A stretch of DNA of 64,000 nucleotides from Neocallimastix sp. 'constans' (lineage: Eukaryota), in assembly GCA_050613775.1 (NCBI GenBank), contig JBODTK010000014.1:1054001-1118000 (forward strand), read 5' to 3'. Position 1 is the stretch's first letter. Every line of letters starts with the position of its first letter. Made by a program: the position numbers and the translations under genes. Positions 10,638-44,900 of this stretch are shown in pieces. The notes beneath the pieces were generated by a model. That model did not search any database. It was not told where the DNA came from and saw nothing but the letters and a program-made list of their open reading frames with translations.

Positions 10638-11858
10638 CACCTAAATCGGCATCAACAAAAATATTTAAATCAATATCGTTAGTAAATTTTAATCCATAAT
10701 ATTTGGTTCCATTTAAATATCTAAAAATTTTTAAGACATTGAACCAATATTCGTAAGTGGGATCCTGATTTTTTCTTGAAGCTTTACTAGTAGTAAACAT
10801 TATTTCTGGTATTGTTCCTATAGTCTGATATAATAAACATCCAACAGCCTTCATATATAATTTTTGGTTGTTTTTTTTCTAAGTTTTTCATTTTTATAAT
10901 ACATTATGTTTGATATTTCATCATATTTATCAATTTTAAATTCATCTAATATTTTATCTACATACTATGATTGATGTAATATATAACCATCATTACATTT
11001 AACAAATTTTATTCCTATTATGAAATCTTTTTCACCAATGTCACTTAATTCAAATTTATTTTTAATTCCTTTTCTAATTTTATTTATTTCTTTATTTTTA
11101 CCAGCTATTAAAATATCATCTACATAAATAGCTAAAATACATATAATATTATTATTTCTATCCTTTTTTATATATACACAAGGTTCACTTTTACATCTAT
11201 TAAATCCTAATTCTAGTAATGAATCATTAATTTAAAATTCCACATTTTACCTGCCTGTTTAATTCATATATAGCTTTATTTAATTTCCAGAATCCATTAT
11301 TATAATTTTCATCATCTTGTGGAATATCCATGTATAGTTCTTCTAAATCGGAATTTAAGTAAGCAGCCTTTATATCTAATTGATAAATATTAAAATTGTA
11401 ATAAACAGCTAAAGCTGTTATTATTCTTAATGAGTCTTGTTTTAAAGTTGGCGAAAAGGTTTCTTTATAATCTATACTTGGTATTTGTGAAAAACCTTTT
11501 GCAACTAATCCAGCTTTATATTTATTTATTTTACCTTTATCGTCTTTTTATATGTAAATACCCATCTACAGGTTATTACATTCTTATCTTTTGGAATATA
11601 AGGGACATATTTATATACTTTTTTATTTTTCATATTATTTAATTCGTTCTCCACAGCCTTTAGCCATAATTCTTCATCAGGTCGTCCATAAATTTCTTTA
11701 AAACTTAAAGGAGGTTTTAATATTTCATTATTACATGAAAATAATTCAAAATTAGCTAAATTTTTTATTTTTTTATTAATATCATTTTCAATTTCTCTAT
11801 TAAATTTTCTTTTAGCAGCATTAAGTTTATTAAAATTTTGTTTTCGGAATTTTCAATT

Positions 11859-12230
11859 TTTGAATTTAAATGTTTGTTTACATTTAATTGTTTATTTGAA
11901 TTTAAATGGTTGTTTACATTTAATTGTTTATTTGAATTTAAATGGTTGTTTACATTTAATTGTTTATTTGAATTTAAATGGTTGTTTACATTTAATTGTT
12001 TATTTGAATTTAAATGGTTGTTTACATTTAATTGTTTATTTGAATTTAAATGGTTGTTTACATTTAATTGTTTATTTGAATTTAAATGGTTGTTTACATT
12101 TAATTGTTTATTTGAATTTAAATGGTTGTTTACATTTAATTGTTTATTTGAATTTAAATGGTTGTTTACATTTAATTGTTTATTTGAATTTAAATGGTTG
12201 TTTACATTTAATTGTTTATTTGAATTTAAA
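11859..12230. repeat. 36-bp minisatellite, ~10 copies (NNHLNSNKQLNV on the minus strand)
   Basis: Unit GAATTTAAATGGTTGTTTACATTTAATTGTTTATTT, nine identical copies plus variants, in the IN-RT linker of Copia-A. Confidence 0.95.
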
Positions 12231-12800
12231 TTATTTTTTAATTTTGAATTTAATTGTTCATTTACAGAGTTAATTTCATTATGTAAATTTGTATTTTTAC
12301 TTACAATTTCGTCATTTTTACCATTATTATTATTAATATTATTATTCACATTATTATTAAAATTTAACTCCTTACTTACATTTTTATTATTTAAATTTAA
12401 TTCTTTGTTTACATTTCTTAAACTATTATTTACTTTATTTAAATTTAAATTATCTTTAATTAAATTTTTTAATTCAAAATAATTGCCTTTATTACTAATA
12501 TTATTATTATTATCAATGTTATTTAATATTTCCTGATTTTTATTTAAATTGGTATTATTTCCTGAATTGTTTATTGCATGTTCCCGAATTTTATTTTGAT
12601 TATTTTTAAATTTTAAATTTGAATTTAAATTTTCATTGTTTATGTTTAAATTAGAATTATTATTATTAATTAAATTGTTTTTATTTTATCATTTTCAGAA
12701 AATAAATTATTATTATTATAATCCTTTAAATTATTATCATTTTCAAAATTTACATTTAAATTATTTAAATGACCACTTTGAAAATTTAAATGAGGATAAT

Positions 12801-34600: not shown

Positions 34601-36151
34601 ATATTAAGTGAAATTAACCAATAAGATTTAGATTACTAGAATGTAAAAGAAAATATTTTCTAAAGCAATTATTTAATTATTAATACATTATAAATAATTC
34701 ATTTATATTTTTCAATTAAATTATTTTATTGAAAGGGCACATTAAGATATTCTATTAATTGAATTTAAAATAATAATGTTCCTAAATTTAACAGTAAGAA
34801 CTATTACTAGTAATAACAAAAGATGTATGTCCGCCATTAAGGAAAAAGAAAAATCTACCTTAAGAATAATATAATTATATTACAGACATAGAATTTGGAA
34901 TGAGTTTAAATCTAGGATCTAATAAATATTCAAAATAATGAATATAAATAAATGAATAACTTTGCAAATGAAATTTTCTTTATTTTAAATAGAGTGTTAC
35001 GAAATTACTATCTTTCTTATTGTAAACTTTTTGAACCGATACTATTTGTTTCTTTATTTTTGAAATAACTGGAAAAAATATTTCATATACTAACATATTA
35101 TCAAAAGGATCATACATATAGTTAGACAAACTTCCAGAAATGTCCTTATTCTTTAATTTCTTTATAATTTCAAATCTTACGTATCAATCAAAGTTATTTA
35201 TTGTTAAAAAGTGTATTATATTATATTATATTTCTCCATCATAAATAATTATCATAATTAAGTTTGATTGATCTATTGGTATATTTAGAATAATTAAAAG
35301 TAATAGCATCTAAATTACCATAGGTAATTTTGTTAGTCAACATTTTATTGATTGATTTTGAGTTCACCTTCTCGATTTATATTATTTGTTTTTAATTTAT
35401 TTGAACTTAATATTTATTTAGCTTGATTTATTCAAAAACTAAATATTAATATACAATTTTTTATTATTTTTTAGTATATTTTTTAAATATTATATCTATA
35501 TAAATATTATTATTATATATTATTAATTAAATATATAATAAATTTTACAAAAAACTTTATGTTCTATTGCGAAAATAATGCTTATTTTATTAAATTTAAT
35601 TATTTTTTTATTGATCATATGTAAATTATATATTCTTTTATTAATGAAAAATTTTAAACAACATTAGATATCAATTTAATAAAGAATTATTTTAATATTA
35701 TTTGATAATAATATTATTGACTTAATATTAATATTTATAATAATAGTTAATTGATGAAAAATATTAATAATTTATATATTTTAAAAATTAACATTAGTAA
35801 TATATTATATAATAATAATAATAATTTTATAACTTTAACAAATAAATATAAATATTTAAAATATATTTTAATTTGTGTTATTAATTAACAAAAATTAATA
35901 AACTCTAAATAAGTTTATATAATTTTTTAATTATTAAAACATTTCGTAAACTTAACCAAGTAGGTTTATCGAGCTATAATTTATTAAAGCTATTTTAATA
36001 AAACATTTTTCATTTTAAATATATTTATGTAATAGTGCATTTTCAAACTTTTATAAATAAATTACATTATGCAAATATTAATAAATTTATTTTATATTAT
36101 TTAATAAATATATATATTTTTGAAAATATATTTAAGGTAAATTTATAAATT

Positions 36152-37650
36152 TCAAATAAAAGTTAACGCCATAATTACATATGGCGTTAAGCAATCGAGT
36201 TTGATTATTGCCATTAATAACACAGAATAGAATTCTTTTTGAACTAATATTGTATTTTCAAAAGATAAATTTAGGCTTAATGGAAGTAAAAGAGTAAAAG
36301 AGATCTCAAATACAACATCTGGAATATCTACAAGGCTTTCATGAATTATAAAGAAATATTCATTCAAAGAGAATTATCCTTTTTGCAAATCAAAGTCCTT
36401 TTGCGATGTGTAACGCTTTACTTTAGACTTATAATACTTGCGAAAATCAGTTCATTTTATTTTGATATTTTCAGTTATTTACAAATTTTTTTGATTATGT
36501 CAGAATCGACAAAATCATTATGTCTCCTCATATTATAGATTCCTACTAAAGTATCTTAAATAAACTTGAACATAAATGAACAGTTTTTAAAAGAACGAAT
36601 AATATTAGCAATATTTAATTTTATTTAGTTCCGTTTAGCTTCATCACTAGAATATGTCCATTTCATCCCCATCAAAAACTACTTGGAAACGCTTGCAATG
36701 AGCAGTTAAATTGAAATGAAACAACTACTTGGATAATAACAAACTGCAAGAAACGAAATAATTTGAATATCAGTTGTTTATTAATAATAACCATAATAAT
36801 AATGTTTATATACAAACGGAATCAATGAATTTCTTAAGAATTAAAATGTAATCCAATGAAGTATCAATATTTTATACGATTACACTCCTAAAACAAAGGT
36901 TTTGTTGTTTTGCTAAACATATACTTTTAAATACTCCTGTTTTTTAAAATAATATCTGTTCTTTATGTATCTTCTTCTGTATCTACTGTTTCATGAAATC
37001 CTATTATTTTTGGAAATAAAATTATTATATATAGAAATACTATGTGTCCACCCAGTATTTCCAATTAATATAGAAAATAAAAAAGGTAATCATAAATAAT
37101 ATCCCAATATTGTTTATAAATACTTTTTCATTTTCTTTTAAATCAATGGATCATTCGTAAATTTTAATAACAAACTTTTCTGCATATTTTCATCAATGAT
37201 TAAATTTTTAATTGCCAAAAGAAATTCATATTCTGAATAAGTTATCCTTTTTTGCTTTTTGTTACTTCTTCTTTCAATATCCGAACTGTTTACTACATTT
37301 TTTTTATGAAATGAAAACGAGGCGGGAATTATTCGCTTTTTGCATCAAATAGATTTTTCCATTATTTGATTTTTTTATATTTGTTAAATACAAGGCGGGA
37401 TTTCTTTAAATAAAATATTTATAAATAAAGGATGTACAAATCTACTATTAAGTGATATTCTTCCTAAATGACCTGGACATTCCATAATTGACTTATATGC
37501 TTATATTGTTTATAAATAATTGTAGTTCCAATGTATAAACAGTGTTATTATCTACTAATACATGTTTTAAGAATATTAAGACTGAATTATATTCCAAATT
37601 ATTATTGTCATAGAGTTTCAAAATAAAAGGAATGAACTATTAATAATAAA
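36152..37650 (-). pseudogene. Decayed DNA-directed RNA polymerase largest subunit (Rpb1/beta-prime family), N-terminal part, probably of viral or linear-plasmid origin
   Basis: Manual minus-strand translation gives collinear motifs: ECPGHLGRISL...VHPLF (37468-37479 = CPGH); KKTGVFKSICLAKQQNLCFRSVI (~36880-36945, GKR region); VIINKQ (~36780, NRQP); SFQFNCSL/CKRFQVVFDGDEMDIF (36659-36676 = FDGDEM); FI*DTLVGIYNM (~36540-36564, VQDTLCG). Several stops and frameshifts. Confidence 0.85.
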
Positions 37651-38239: not shown

Positions 38240-38790
38240 TTCCAATGAAAAAGTTGAAAAAAGGAATAGAGAGATAGTCAAATACATTTAAATACTTAAT
38301 ACCAATTAAAAGAATTAAGTAAACAAAATCAAGAATAGGATGATATTTTATCTAATGCATTTAAGTTTTATGAACAACAAAAAATGGAGTTACTAAATTT
38401 TGTAATTTTGAATTTCTTAATGATGGGAAAGATTTACAATCCTTTGAATTAGAAATTAGTATTGAAGAATCCGAAGAAGGATAAATTTCGTACAAAATAA
38501 ATATTTTGTACGAAAATTTAATTGGATTTCTGAAACTATCAAAAATATTGAAACTTCGAATAAGTTTTGGAAAGATAGGAAAAGAAAGATTAAAAGATTA
38601 AGTAGAGAATTTAAACCAGGAGATTTAGTTTTAATTATAAATTTCAATTAATATAAGTTTGACCCTTATTACATTGAACCATTAAAAATAGTTTAACAAC
38701 AATACAGTTACAGTATTTGACCCTTATAAGAATGAAATTGTTGTAAGAAACATTCATCTTAAAAACGTAATTCTATATATTAGTAATTAC
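38240..38790 (+). pseudogene. Gypsy integrase C-terminal remnant
   Basis: KVEKRNREIVKY; FKPGDLVLI; KFDPYYIEP; RNIHLKNVI, homologous to 1810-2073 and 39785-40084. Confidence 0.75.
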
Positions 38791-39237: not shown

Positions 39238-42200
39238 TGATATGAATTAATAATTATAAGTGAAAATTCATAAATATTTATATTTATTAATTAGTTTAAT
39301 ATTACGAGAAATAATATTTAAAAAGTTAGTTATAATATAAAAATAAAAATGATTTATAAATAAATATTTTTAAATAAATAATATAATAATAATATGTATT
39401 TTTATTTATTATAAAATAATAAATAAAATAATAAATAAAATAATTAATAAATAAATTTAATTAATTGTTTTTGTGATAAAAATAAACTATTAAATGAATA
39501 TAAATATTAATAATTATTATTAAATAAAATTTTTAATAACTATATAAATATAAATATAAAATAATAAGAATATAATTAAAACATTGATTTATGTTTTAAA
39601 ATTTTTATTAATTATAAATATAATTAATAGATAGAAATCAAGCCACATATTGAAATTGTTGTAAAATCATTAGATTTAAATTTGATTTATGACATTAATT
39701 TATGTTTGAATAATAAAAACTATTTTATATTAATTAAGGTTTAAATATTTCATTTTATATCATTCGTACCACCTTAAGATACAACTATACCATGGTTGTG
39801 TTAAACTTGATAATATTTTTAAGGTGTACTGGTCGTTCTAAGCATGTATGTGTGTTAGGATCCATAAATTGAACTGTATTAAATTTCTTTTTAACTACTT
39901 GATAAGGTTCAACAAAATAAGGGTCCAATTTATATCTCGAAAAGTTCCTTATTTTAACTATATCGCTTATTTTTATTTCATTTTGTTCATTAAAACTTGT
40001 TTCTTTTTCTCTTTTAGTTTTCCAATATTTATTATTTTTATTGATGTTATTACAGGCATTTATAACCCATATATAATGATCCATAAATTTTTCAATTAAC
40101 TTTTCTTCTTGAGTTCCTTAAACATAAGGGGTAGGTAAAGTTGTGGATAATTCGAATGGTTGTTGATCTTTCCTACCTTAAACTAGTTCAAAACTGGAAT
40201 ATTTTGTCACTTTTTGAAGTTCTTAAAGCCCATAAAGCAGAAGGTAAAAGCATATCCCATTCTCTTTCTTTATTTCCTAAAAGTCTTAGTAATTTTTCGA
40301 TTTTTCGATTTTTCGATTTCTATTTTCTGTTAAGCCATTAGATTCTGGGTGATAAGTAACAGTAAATTTTATATATACGTCAAATAGATCTTTTATGTAC
40401 CTTGATTTTTCTCTCGAAATTTTTAAATTAGAAATAATTTTGAAATTTTTAATTTTTTTGTCTAAATTTATTTTTGAATATTTTACATTAGAAATTTTTA
40501 GATTTTCATTTTTATTAAAATTTTCTGATTTCATAATATCTTCATTTTCTGGTTTTCAATTGTCCTTATTTTCTAAGTCCTTATTCTTTCCCTTCTGAGA
40601 TGATACTTACCCTTTTTTAGATATTTCTATTTTACTCTTATTATTAATATTACGATTATTTGACTTAATTCTTGAGAGAGCATCTACAAGAGAATTTTTC
40701 TTACATTGATGATAGATTATCTTTATTCTTATCATACTAATGGTAATGCACCATCTAATATGCCTCATATTATTAGGTTCTTTATTATTAAATAAACCAA
40801 CTAGAGGTTTATGGTCTGTATATAGTAGTGTTTCAAATTTATTCCTGGAAATATAATATTTAAATTTTTTTCGCACAGAAATATACCGCAGTACCTTCTA
40901 AATCTGTAATACTATTATTTCTTACTTCTTTTTCTAAGTTCTATTAACAAAATGTACAGGATGTTCTAGTCAATCTTTTTCATTAATTTGTAATAGTACT
41001 CCACCTAAACCATCTTTTAAAGCATCAGTTCTAATTATAAATCGTTTATTATAATCAGGAAAAGCTAAGATAGGAGCTTGAATAATAGAATATTTTAATT
41101 TATCAAAGCTAGATAAGCTAGATTTTTTTTCTTCTGTCTATGTAAATGAAACATTCATTTTTAAAAGTTTATTTAAGGGAGCTGCTAACATAGTGAAATT
41201 GTTTATATATTTTCTATAACATCCTACAGTACCTATGAAAGATCGTAATTAATTAATATTGCAAGGTCTAATCCAGTTTTTAACAGTATTAACCTTGGAA
41301 TCTATTGTTTTTAAACCTTTATTAGTAACTATATGACCTAAAACTTCAACTTCTTGAAAAAAGGAACATTTTTCAATATTGATTTTTATTTCATATTATC
41401 TGAAAATTTCAAAAATTTCAAATACTATGTTTAAATGTTTTAAATGATCTTCTTTTATTTAGAAAATATTAAAATGTCATCAATAAAAACAAATACACAT
41501 TTACCCAATAATTCAAAGAGAATACGATTCATTTCTTTTTGGAAAGTAGCTGGAGCGCCAGTAAATCCAAAGAGTATAACTTTGTAGACAAAATTACCAA
41601 ATTTAGTTGTAGAACATGTTAAGTCGATTCTATCTTCGTCCATTCTAAATTGATGATAACCAGAGAGGAGATCCAGAGTAGAGAAAATTTCCGCACATCC
41701 TTGACTATAAAAAATTTCATCAATATTAAGAAGGGAATAAGAATCTGGTACTGTCATAGTATTTAACTTACAGTAGTTAGAACACAATCTCCATTTTCCA
41801 TTTTTCTTTAATACTATAACAATAGGAGAAAACCAGGAAATTTTAGAGTGTTCAATTAATCCCTGATTAATAAGTTTAATCAACTCTTAAGTATATCCAA
41901 CTTAATTTTATTTAATTATAAAATTTGCTTTTAAATTGTTTTGCGTTCTTAATAAGTTCAATATTGATGAGGATTTAATTTGGAGGGTGTAAGTTCATTT
42001 GTCGAAGTAGTAGTAACATCAATATATATTACTAACATTTCTATTATGACATCCCTAACTTTTGGATCTGATTTTGAATAAAACTTAGTAGAATGAATAT
42101 ATTTTAAAGGATTCAATACATCTTTCTCTATAATGAAAGATTCATCAGCACTTTTATTAATACGTTTTTTATCTTCTAAATACGAATCTCCGTTATCCAT

Positions 42201-43660: not shown

Positions 43661-44900
43661 GAGTGATCTGTTATGATTTGAAATGAGAGTTTAGAACCTT
43701 TCAAGTGATTTCTCCAAACTTTTAAAGCAGTAATTACTCCAAGAAGTTCTTTATCATAAATTTTATAATTAATTTCAGCCGGAAACGTTGATCTGAAATA
43801 GAGTGCAACTGGATGGAGGAGATTATCTTCATTACTTTTTTGGGACAGGATACATCCGACCGCAAAATCGCTGACGTCAGTTTCCATAAAGAATTCTTTG
43901 TCATGTCTGGATGAATCAATACCTTATTGAAAGAATTTTTTAAATTATTAAATGCTTCGTCAGCTTGCTTGCTACATTTAAATAGTTTATTTTTCATTAG
44001 TAAATGCCTAAGAGGTTCCATGATTGAAGCAAAATCTTTGATAAATCTTCTGTTAAAGCTGCATAATCCCAAAAATCTTTGGAATTCTTTTATATTCTTT
44101 GGGATTAACCATTCCATGATTGACATAGATTTATCCTTGTTCATTGTAATCCCTTTGGGAGTTATCGTAGATCCTAAAAAATGTGTTTTTTCCACATGGA
44201 GGTCACATTTTTCCAGCTTCGCAAATAGATAATTTTCAATTAATTTTCTGAGTACGTGATTAACTTCCTTAATGTGATAATTTTTCTTTTTATCGTCAAG
44301 ATATATTTGAATGAATATTCCAAGTTCGTCAGAGAATATATCTTGAATAAATCTCTGAAATACAGAAGGAGCATTCCGCAAGCCGGAGAGCATCACAAAG
44401 TATTCATAATTTCCTAAAGGTGTTCTAAAGGCTGTTAGATATTCATGACTATCCTTTATTCGTATGAAGTTGTACCCTAAGCGAAGGTCGAGACGATAGA
44501 AAAAATTACTGATCCTTGAAATGATTCTTTTAGATCATTAATTCGTGATATTGGTAGCTATTCCTGATGGTTAGAGCATTGAGGCCGCGAAAATTCACAC
44601 ATAATCGTAGCGAGTCATCATATTTTTTAACAAATAGAACTAGTGCTCCAGCTGACGAATTCGATTTTCTTATAAATCCCTTTTTTAAATCTTCATGGAT
44701 ATTTCTTTTAAAATTTTCATTTCGGTTTCAAATAAAGATTATATTGGTCCATAGTAGAGTTGACTCCCTGGAATAATGTCTATTATCATGTCGTAACTCC
44801 GATGAAGCAACAATTTATTTGGCTTCTTTTTAGATACTATCTTCATATACGAATAATATTTATTTATTATTTCTTTTTTAATATTGATGTGTTGTTTGTT
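43660..44900 (-). pseudogene. RT-RNase H of a second, Tf/chromovirus-like Gypsy family (Gypsy-5)
   Basis: [30 protein letters not shown]...IYLDD; ETDVSDFAVGCILSQ...NYKIYDKELL...ITDH; fused to the Gypsy-4 gag at ~43660. Confidence 0.85.

What the first reader, a model, noticed from the sequence alone, without database searches (positions are those of the whole stretch)
36152..37650. Fossil of a compact, highly divergent multi-subunit RNA polymerase largest-subunit gene hidden among retrotransposons
Seen: minus-strand translation through stops and frameshifts gives, in the correct order, IGT...ECPGHLGRISL..FVHPLF, KKTGVFKSICLAKQQNLCFRSVI, VIINKQ..SFLA, SFQFNCSL/CKRFQVVFDGDEMDIF, SDEAK, FI*DTLVGIYNM and LLLP...ILFCVI. 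The ORF track misses all of the diagnostic motifs. Established: these correspond to the Rpb1/beta-prime clamp zinc site (CPGHFG), GKRVDFSARTVI, NRQPTLH, the catalytic NADFDGDEM loop and VQDTL.G. Inference: it is much too divergent for fungal Pol I/II/III, shows no obvious intron, and is compact (about 33 codons from RSVI to the NRQP equivalent, versus roughly 90 in yeast Rpb1, so the dock domain is missing). That fits an endogenised cytoplasmic DNA virus (Nucleocytoviricota) or a virus-like linear plasmid of the pGKL2 type, possibly a lineage not described for this host.
Basis: partly seen in the sequence, partly recalled or inferred. Interest (0 to 1): 0.9.

Follow-up and report, generated by a model that had tools for sequence, protein, structure and literature searches.

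The report
Decayed giant-virus polymerase gene, gut fungus
This is a broken, truncated copy of a virus-type RNA polymerase gene from an already described family of giant-virus-derived DNA in gut fungi; the copy itself is ordinary, but its intact relatives are unusually stripped down and likely multiplied recently.

Summary
The fossil is real. Minus strand 36144-37618 aligns with residues 6-534 of an intact 748-aa protein (287/476 identical; 9 stops, about 19 frame breaks; score 1017 vs nulls up to 94). It nests inside a family of compact RPB1-N genes (about 720 aa) named from five or six gut-fungal taxa. Four family members lie on contigs with the exact lengths of RP1n-bearing 'fundsalphavirus' loci of Gong et al. 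2020 (endogenous Pithovirus/iridovirus-related elements). So the Nucleocytoviricota reading holds, the pGKL2 reading fails (clamp kept, no beta fusion), and the lineage is already described in this host group. AU tests reject grouping with Pol II or Pol III; Pol I was not tested. The window copy has lost a catalytic Asp and its 3' third, and no helicase or methyltransferase partner was found in the window. Not found in print in my searches: the family lacks about 58 residues where the dock lies, has QADFDGD instead of NADFDGD, and has at least 12 intact copies, 97-99.9% identical, in one Neocallimastix assembly. No gut-fungal capsid or A32 sequence appears in Gong's trees. A capsid-less, self-transcribing mobile element is therefore not excluded.

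The parts
36144..37618 (-). Pseudogene fragment of fundsalphavirus-type RPB1-N (RP1n), equal to residues 6-534 of the 748-aa intact relative P0015; 3' third missing
37462..37479 (-). Clamp-head zinc motif CPGHLG (the upstream CxxC is degraded in this copy)
   Evidence: domain 1 of the PDB alignment
36878..36943 (-). KTGVFKSICLAKQQNLCFRSVI, equivalent of G.FR..L.GKR.NFSARTVI
36774..36791 (-). VIINKQ, degraded NRQP motif, about 36 codons after the start of RSVI (dock-region segment absent, as in the intact family)
36662..36685 (-). Degraded catalytic loop QVVFDGDE (family: QADFDGDE); first metal-binding Asp lost
36529..36564 (-). FI*DTLVGIYNM, the QD motif of Rpb1 domain 3, interrupted by a stop
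36335..36420 (-). Insertion of about 27-30 residues, shared with P0015/P0019 and absent from P0010 (subfamily mark; coordinates approximate)

Best explanation
The locus is a dead, 3'-truncated copy of the N-terminal half of a split viral-type RNA polymerase largest subunit (RP1n) belonging to the gut-fungal 'fundsalphavirus' family, likely left behind when an integrated Nucleocytoviricota-derived element decayed among LTR retrotransposons in a likely Neocallimastix-related genome. Shown here: homology, order of motifs, lesions, membership of the protein family, and its distance from Pol II and Pol III. From Gong et al.: intact elements carry RP1n with a separate RP1c, RPB2, PolB, D5 primase-helicase, D6/D11-like helicase, methyltransferase and UDG. 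Inferred mechanism: in an intact element RP1n, RP1c and RPB2 would assemble a minimal, dock-less polymerase that transcribes the element's own intronless genes, with PolB and D5 replicating it; copies integrate repeatedly, and those that lose function erode by stops, indels and retrotransposon insertion. This copy does nothing now: one catalytic Asp, the NRQP Arg and the bridge helix are gone.
For: Intact relatives L005 and L019 found by a motif scan; tblastn to the window E=7e-32 and 2e-26. 27 family clusters at 52-99% identity, named from Neocallimastix lanati, N. sp. 'constans', Piromyces finnis, Piromyces sp. E2, Anaeromyces robustus and an Orpsp1 model, then a cliff from 468 to 185 bits. 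Longest-contig lengths of P0011, P0022, P0030 and P0024 (127315, 168386, 246453, 68043) equal contigs drawn with RP1n in Gong's Fig. S2 and present in their RPB1 tree; two other P. finnis members (309320, 749539) had no length match. The window read-through is sister to P0015+P0019 (SH-aLRT 100) inside an 18-row family clade (100). AU rejects family+Pol II (p=1.9e-12) and family+Pol III (p=9.5e-74). Fungal Rpb1/Rpc1 score 55-63 on the window DNA, at null level. The gene model P0184 runs from RP1n into a Helicase_C domain, matching Gong's gene order. All five Pfam Rpb1 domains hit the intact L019 protein. dN/dS about 0.16 between L005 and L019 over 627 codons, with dS near saturation. Top Foldseek viral hits are two Pithovirus LCPAC proteins; the nearest Atlas clusters are Nucleocytoviricota.
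Against: No PolB, the marker that defines fundsalphaviruses, could be tied to this copy: no genome is held, and no helicase or methyltransferase remnant was found in the 64 kb. My trees have no named Pithovirus, iridovirus, poxvirus, VLE, Pol I or gut-fungal Pol, and the family sits on a long branch (1.3-1.8) that joins only unnamed long branches. Fold scores barely separate viral (6e-38) from archaeal (1e-34) or Pol II (1e-33) targets, TM 0.41-0.48 among the top hits. By sequence the best PDB hits are yeast Pol II or archaeal A'. The host is inferred (20.5% GC, faecal and gut runs, tree neighbours), not given.
Confidence: 0.9

Rival explanations
1. Captured gene of a cytoplasmic linear plasmid (VLE) of the pGKL2 helper type.
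For: AT-rich, intronless, reduced polymerase; VLE beta-prime is also split and of NCLDV origin; VLEs now reach Zoopagomycota, Mucoromycota and one chytrid contig; Gong's rows show chitin-binding genes at the cassette edges and one Zancudomyces locus beside a zymocin-alpha-like chitinase.
Against: K2ORF6p is fused to beta and lacks beta-prime a1-a10 and a13-a14. This family starts with its own Met, keeps both clamp zinc sites and Rpb1 domains 3-4, and has no member of 1260 aa or more among 4203 candidates. The cassette has D5 and a Pithovirus-like PolB, whereas VLEs use protein-primed PolB.
Confidence: 0.03
2. Decayed duplicate of a host polymerase (Pol I, II or III), or a fast-evolving host paralogue.
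For: Best PDB sequence hits include yeast Rpb1; NCBI names the genes as fungal; long branch; Pol I untested here.
Against: AU tests reject Pol II and Pol III; null-level scores to fungal Rpb1/Rpc1; split, intronless, many copies; Gong's RPB1 tree lists Pol I, II and III apart from these loci (tip lists only).
Confidence: 0.03
3. The family is a domesticated, host-serving polymerase, or a gene amplified passively by retrotransposons or segmental duplication, rather than part of a self-propagating element.
For: Purifying selection; copies lie among LTR elements, which Gong et al. suggest may aid proliferation; the window copy has no detected viral neighbours.
Against: Copies recur as a multi-gene cassette with PolB and D5 in a conserved order; broken and intact copies coexist in several subfamilies, as for mobile elements.
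Confidence: 0.12
4. The breaks are sequencing or assembly errors in an intact gene.
For: AT-rich, homopolymer-rich DNA.
Against: Nine stops, damaged catalytic residues and a truncation; run X13 reproduces two stretches of 676 and 581 bases almost letter for letter.
Confidence: 0.01

Closest known systems
Fundsalphaviruses (Gong, Zhang and Han 2020, PMC7017919; parts 1-2 of 3 of the main file, which hold all text up to the start of the reference list, and all 7 parts of the supplement read as machine-extracted text; figures not seen)
   Same: Same hosts; split RPB1 (RP1n/RP1c); four contig-length matches to RP1n loci; helicase neighbour; stops and frameshifts in some copies; LTR neighbours.
   Different: This copy has lost its detectable neighbours and belongs to the N. 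'constans' P0015 subfamily, a genome not in their table. In the text I read, the paper does not describe the dock-region deletion, the Asn-to-Gln change, or near-identical intact copies, and does not comment on the lack of gut-fungal capsid hits.
Pitho-, irido- and marseillevirus RPB1 (Pimascovirales; order name recalled)
   Same: Listed next to fundsalphaviruses in Gong's trees; top fold hits; marseilleviruses have two beta-prime accessions per virus.
   Different: Viral fold hits are 16-19% identical among the top 15; non-family hits keep NADFDGD (206 of 213) and a spacing near 97.
Yeast VLE polymerase K2ORF6p/K2ORF7p (Sykora et al. 2018, PMC6211774; passages read)
   Same: Reduced, split beta-prime of NCLDV origin in a fungus.
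   Different: The VLE enzyme is beta-fused, clamp-less and lacks the rim helices; this family is unfused and keeps the clamp, but loses the dock-region segment.
Archaeal Rpo1N (A')
   Same: Ends shortly after the bridge helix; strong sequence and fold hits.
   Different: About 880-910 aa, with about 58 more residues in the dock region; long-branch distance.
Mycodnaviridae (PMC13533422; passages read)
   Same: Endogenous giant viruses of zoosporic fungi.
   Different: Up to 350 kb with MCP; related to Imitervirales/Algavirales; the paper says earlier fungal EVEs are distinct; 0 occurrences of 'neocallim' or 'RNA polymerase' in its main text.

Membership tests
Multisubunit RNAP beta-prime/Rpb1 N-half | Collinear Rpb1 domains 1-5 with clamp zinc sites, NRQP, DFDGD and bridge helix | tested here: met
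   Intact L019: Pfam Rpb1_1 to _5, model and fold hits; the window copy aligns over domains 1-3 only
Fundsalphavirus (Gong 2020) | RP1n homologous to the genes at their loci | tested here: met
   Window copy nests in the family; four members match RP1n-bearing contigs by length and organism
Fundsalphavirus (Gong 2020) | RPB1 split into RP1n and RP1c | tested here: met
   Most full-length relatives end 60-78 residues after the start of the bridge-helix motif vs 538-978 in Pol II/III; no long form found; the window copy breaks off earlier, so this is shown for relatives only
Fundsalphavirus (Gong 2020) | Linked family-B DNA polymerase grouping near Pithovirus | not testable with these tools
   No genome held; fetched relatives are 2.1-2.3 kb contigs; no PolB query was in hand, so the window was not searched for it
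Fundsalphavirus (Gong 2020) | Neighbouring D6/D11 helicase and methyltransferase | tested here: inconclusive
   None in the window by tblastn at E<0.05; helicase joined to RP1n in gene model P0184, and a methyltransferase listed in the P0005 cluster
Yeast VLE (pGKL2) RNAP | beta fused to part of beta-prime | tested here: not met
   L019 ORF begins with its own Met just after a stop; no member of 1260 aa or more
Yeast VLE (pGKL2) RNAP | Clamp (a1-a10) and rim helices (a13-a14) absent | tested here: not met
   Rpb1_1, _3 and _4 present
Host RNA polymerase II or III | Clade with Rpb1 or Rpc1 | tested here: not met
   AU p=1.9e-12 and 9.5e-74 on 32 rows; ascomycete, not gut-fungal, references
Host RNA polymerase I | Clade with Rpa1 | not tested
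   No Rpa1 sequence in hand; PDB phmmer ranks Rpa1 at 75-79 bits vs 129 for Rpb1
Nucleocytoviricota virus (virion-forming) | Double jelly-roll MCP and A32 ATPase | not testable with these tools
   No flanks available; Gong's Figs S9-S10 tip lists hold no Neocallimastigomycota sequence
Mycodnaviridae | Placement in MY_02 by marker genes, MCP present | not testable with these tools
   No markers other than RP1n available

The most novel reading that the evidence does not exclude
Gut-fungal fundsalphaviruses are not just fossils but a living class of capsid-less mobile element: a giant-virus genome shrunk to a cassette that fits in about 30 kb, still multiplying (at least 12 intact RP1n copies, 97-99.9% identical, in one Neocallimastix assembly) and transcribing itself with a minimal split polymerase that has no dock and a Gln in place of the near-universal active-site Asn. 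It would be a second, independent route from Nucleocytoviricota to a non-viral selfish element in fungi, parallel to the yeast killer plasmids.
Probability: 0.35. Interest if true: 0.8.

Novelty: new member of a known kind. Interest (0 to 1): 0.4.

Why it matters
The window copy alone adds one more decayed RP1n to a family published in 2020. Its value is as a pointer. Only 1 paper in the searched library holds the word 'fundsalphavirus', yet newer assemblies hold dozens of intact, near-identical RP1n genes under generic fungal names. That makes three questions directly testable in culturable gut fungi: are the elements still mobile, do they form particles or have they given up the capsid, and how does a polymerase start transcription without a dock (the TFIIB contact; recalled) and with Gln at the beta-prime Asn458 position, a residue described as universally conserved that contacts the NTP 2'-OH, though with a modest effect on selectivity (PMC7862312, passages)? 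It also warns that these genes are filed as host 'beta and beta-prime subunits' in gut-fungal annotations.

Tried and rejected
No host genome is held. Single-frame PDB and homologue searches with the 100-aa catalytic stretch found nothing. No RNA holder listed; this says nothing on expression. Viral contigs: four scans found no relative (0 stretches; 10 loci, none of the family, two being a 1642-aa NADFDGD RPB1; 52 stretches, none confirmed; 3 loci, all chance). Prokaryotic genome contigs: 86 stretches, none confirmed. Of 29 metagenome loci, 2 were family members and 27 were unrelated. Runs X15 and X16 hold small shares and only short pieces, so they were not used. Contig depths (relatives up to 40, exact pieces 2.7-3.5 in X14) are not copy numbers and were not used as such. 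A wide six-frame Pfam scan of the flanks was not obtained; only nine short stretches were scanned, so other viral remnants in the window are not excluded. The 67-aa open stretch at 34983-35183 gave no Pfam or Atlas hit. Three look-ups of earlier findings returned nothing. Literature searches; none listed a paper describing the dock loss, QADFDGD or recent amplification, but one search returned only irrelevant accession-number matches, and most subscription papers are outside the library. Papers seen: PMC7017919 (main text up to the start of the references, and the whole supplement as text), PMC13348850 (part 1 of 7 plus passages), PMC6211774, PMC13533422, PMC7862312 and 10.64898/2026.06.07.730663 (passages only; the last proved irrelevant). 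Supplements of PMC13533422 (PolB tree, S6 Fig) and PMC13348850 were not read and may bear on novelty. Trees used subsets: 83 rows (window read-through, 17 of 27 family clusters, 51 of 93 other near hits, 14 of 120 long hits) and 32 rows (5 family rows, no window row).

Full report
Setting. The window is 20.5% GC and its long ORFs look like Ty1/Ty3 retrotransposon pieces (Pfam RVT_1 at 41458-41886 and 43737-44534). No whole genome is held. Sixteen public runs hold the stretch or part of it, labelled faeces or gut metagenome or coded organisms; nine are marked as possible sources and are not independent support. An anaerobic gut fungus as host is an inference from these facts and from the tree below.

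Observation. Each frame alone is weak, but phmmer of one frame against 1.84 billion representatives returned 10 hits, the best at 2.4e-35. Laying contigs showed the exact locus in run X13 over 676 and 581 bases with 1-2 other letters and one gap each, and relatives about 80-85% alike in X13 and X14; in X14 these carry extra letters at several places where the window copy changes frame. A short motif scan of metagenome contigs gave 29 loci, of which 2 (L005, L019) encode intact relatives. L019 holds one uninterrupted ORF of about 718 aa with Pfam Rpb1 domains 1-5.

The family. L019 retrieves 27 clusters at 52-99% identity, named from Neocallimastix lanati, N. sp. 'constans', Piromyces finnis (five clusters), Piromyces sp. 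E2, Anaeromyces robustus and an Orpsp1 model; the next hit drops to 185 bits and 27%. The closest intact protein to the window is P0015 (748 aa; its cluster includes N. 'constans' accessions): frameshift-aware score 1017, against 575-803 for seven other family members, 49-107 for 14 non-family RPB1-like proteins, and nulls up to 94. The alignment covers 37618-36144, residues 6-534, 287 of 476 identical, with 9 stops and about 19 frame breaks. It shows that 'IGT' and 'CSL/CKR' are off-frame, that the first catalytic Asp, the NRQP Arg and the first CxxC are damaged, and that the gene stops before funnel and bridge helix. In an 83-row tree the read-through is sister to P0015+P0019 (100) in a family clade (100). 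On 32 rows with a mixture model, AU tests reject a clade of the family with Pol II (p=1.9e-12) or Pol III (p=9.5e-74). No Pol I or named virus was in these trees, and the family branch is long, so its deeper placement is not settled here.

Identity with a published group. Gong, Zhang and Han 2020 (PMC7017919) describe 'fundsalphaviruses': endogenous NCLDV elements whose PolB groups with Pithovirus, with 26, 6, 4, 4 and 1 copies in N. californiae, P. finnis, A. robustus, Piromyces E2 and Pecoramyces, and with RPB1 as RP1n and RP1c. Their Fig. S2 draws RP1n on contigs of 127315, 168386, 246453 and 68043 bp, the longest-contig lengths of P0011, P0022, P0030 and P0024; these contigs are also tips in their RPB1 tree, listed next to irido-, asco-, pitho- and marseilleviruses. 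Two other P. finnis members had no length match. Their recurring order, read from machine-extracted figure text, is ChtBD1, methyltransferase, UDG, RPB2, D5, (DnaJ), PolB, RP1c, helicase, RP1n, ChtBD1, and it fits on a 31,850-bp contig. In keeping with this, gene model P0184 runs from RP1n into a Helicase_C domain. Neither that helicase nor the methyltransferase P0143 hits the window, so no partner of this copy was found. Independent pointers agree but discriminate weakly: the nearest Atlas clusters are Nucleocytoviricota (0.97), and the AlphaFold model (pLDDT 79) hits Pithovirus proteins first in BFVD (6e-38), close to archaeal and Pol II hits in the PDB (1e-34 to 1e-33).

Not a pGKL2-type gene. 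K2ORF6p is a beta-beta-prime fusion lacking most of the clamp and the rim helices (PMC6211774). This family has its own start, keeps clamp and domains 3-4, and no member of 1260 aa or more turned up among 4203 candidates.

What seems undescribed. (a) The spacing from RxVI to NRQP is 38 residues in 23 of 27 family clusters (4 not measurable) against a median of 97 in 208 of 213 other hits, only 3 of which are under 60; against Thermococcus A', about 7 residues replace about 65. That this is the dock, the TFIIB contact, is recalled knowledge. (b) The catalytic loop begins with Gln in 24 of 24 family clusters where it is present (22 QADFDGD) against NADFDGD in 206 of 213 others; the corresponding beta-prime Asn458 is described as universally conserved and contacts the NTP 2'-OH, with a 4-fold or smaller effect when changed to Ser (PMC7862312; the equivalence rests on the recalled position of Asn458 in the motif). 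(c) The P0005 cluster has 75 members; among the 15 listed are 12 N. lanati and 13 other Neocallimastix accessions of full-length 719-aa proteins, several on 37-63 kb scaffolds; 13 such sequences are 97.1-99.9% identical and keep all four motifs checked. dN/dS between L005 and L019 is about 0.16. Haplotype duplication or gene conversion could inflate these counts; I could not test that. (d) Gong's MCP and A32 trees list no gut-fungal sequence, and the paper does not comment on this in the text I read; their search was BLAST-based and could miss a divergent capsid.

Mechanism. Shown: the window copy is a non-functional fragment of this family. Inferred: intact cassettes encode their own replication (PolB, D5, UDG) and transcription (RP1n, RP1c, RPB2, helicase, methyltransferase) functions, integrate repeatedly, and decay once inactivated. 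Whether they spread as virions or as capsid-less elements is open; I give the latter, with ongoing mobility, about 0.35.

Verdict. Real; a new decayed member of a known kind. Interest 0.4: ordinary as a locus, useful as an entry to an overlooked and testable element family.

Noticed in passing
P0032 (724 aa), P0034 (512 aa), P0104 (516 aa); Unnamed metagenomic RPB1-N proteins that are also short-spaced in the dock region (35 residues) but keep NADFDGD; P0032 and P0034 also end soon after the bridge helix. They join the family only as long branches, so they may be sister lineages or an artefact.
   Followed up: partly
L019 1-2279 and L005 1-2129: Both contigs span little more than the ORF (L019: about 33 bases before the ATG, 89 after the stop), as transcript assemblies would; their source type is not known. 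L005 has a stop and frame change just after the start of the bridge helix.
   Followed up: partly
window 34983-35183 (-): A 67-codon open stretch (YVRFEIIKK...) in a decayed coding-like region about 1 kb downstream of the fossil; no Pfam or Atlas hit.
   Followed up: partly
window 38361-38720 (+) and 39785-40117 (-): Two inverted, mutually similar remnants (…YKFDPYYIEP… and …YKLDPYFVEP…) that look like Ty3/gypsy integrase C-termini just upstream of the fossil; no significant Pfam hit, so the label is from recall.
   Followed up: partly
window 11760-12270: A tandem repeat giving an NKQLNVNNHLNS-like periodic peptide inside a Ty1/copia-like element.
   Followed up: no
PMC7017919 Fig. S2: Chitin-binding (ChtBD1) genes flank many gut-fungal cassettes, and a Zancudomyces locus lies beside LysM, ChtBD1 and a zymocin-alpha-like GH18 gene, echoing killer-plasmid cargo.
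   Followed up: no
P0171, P0182, P0185, P0186, P0129, P0130: Many short, broken gene models of the same P0015 subfamily, so this subfamily has left several other decayed copies in Neocallimastix-like genomes.
   Followed up: partly
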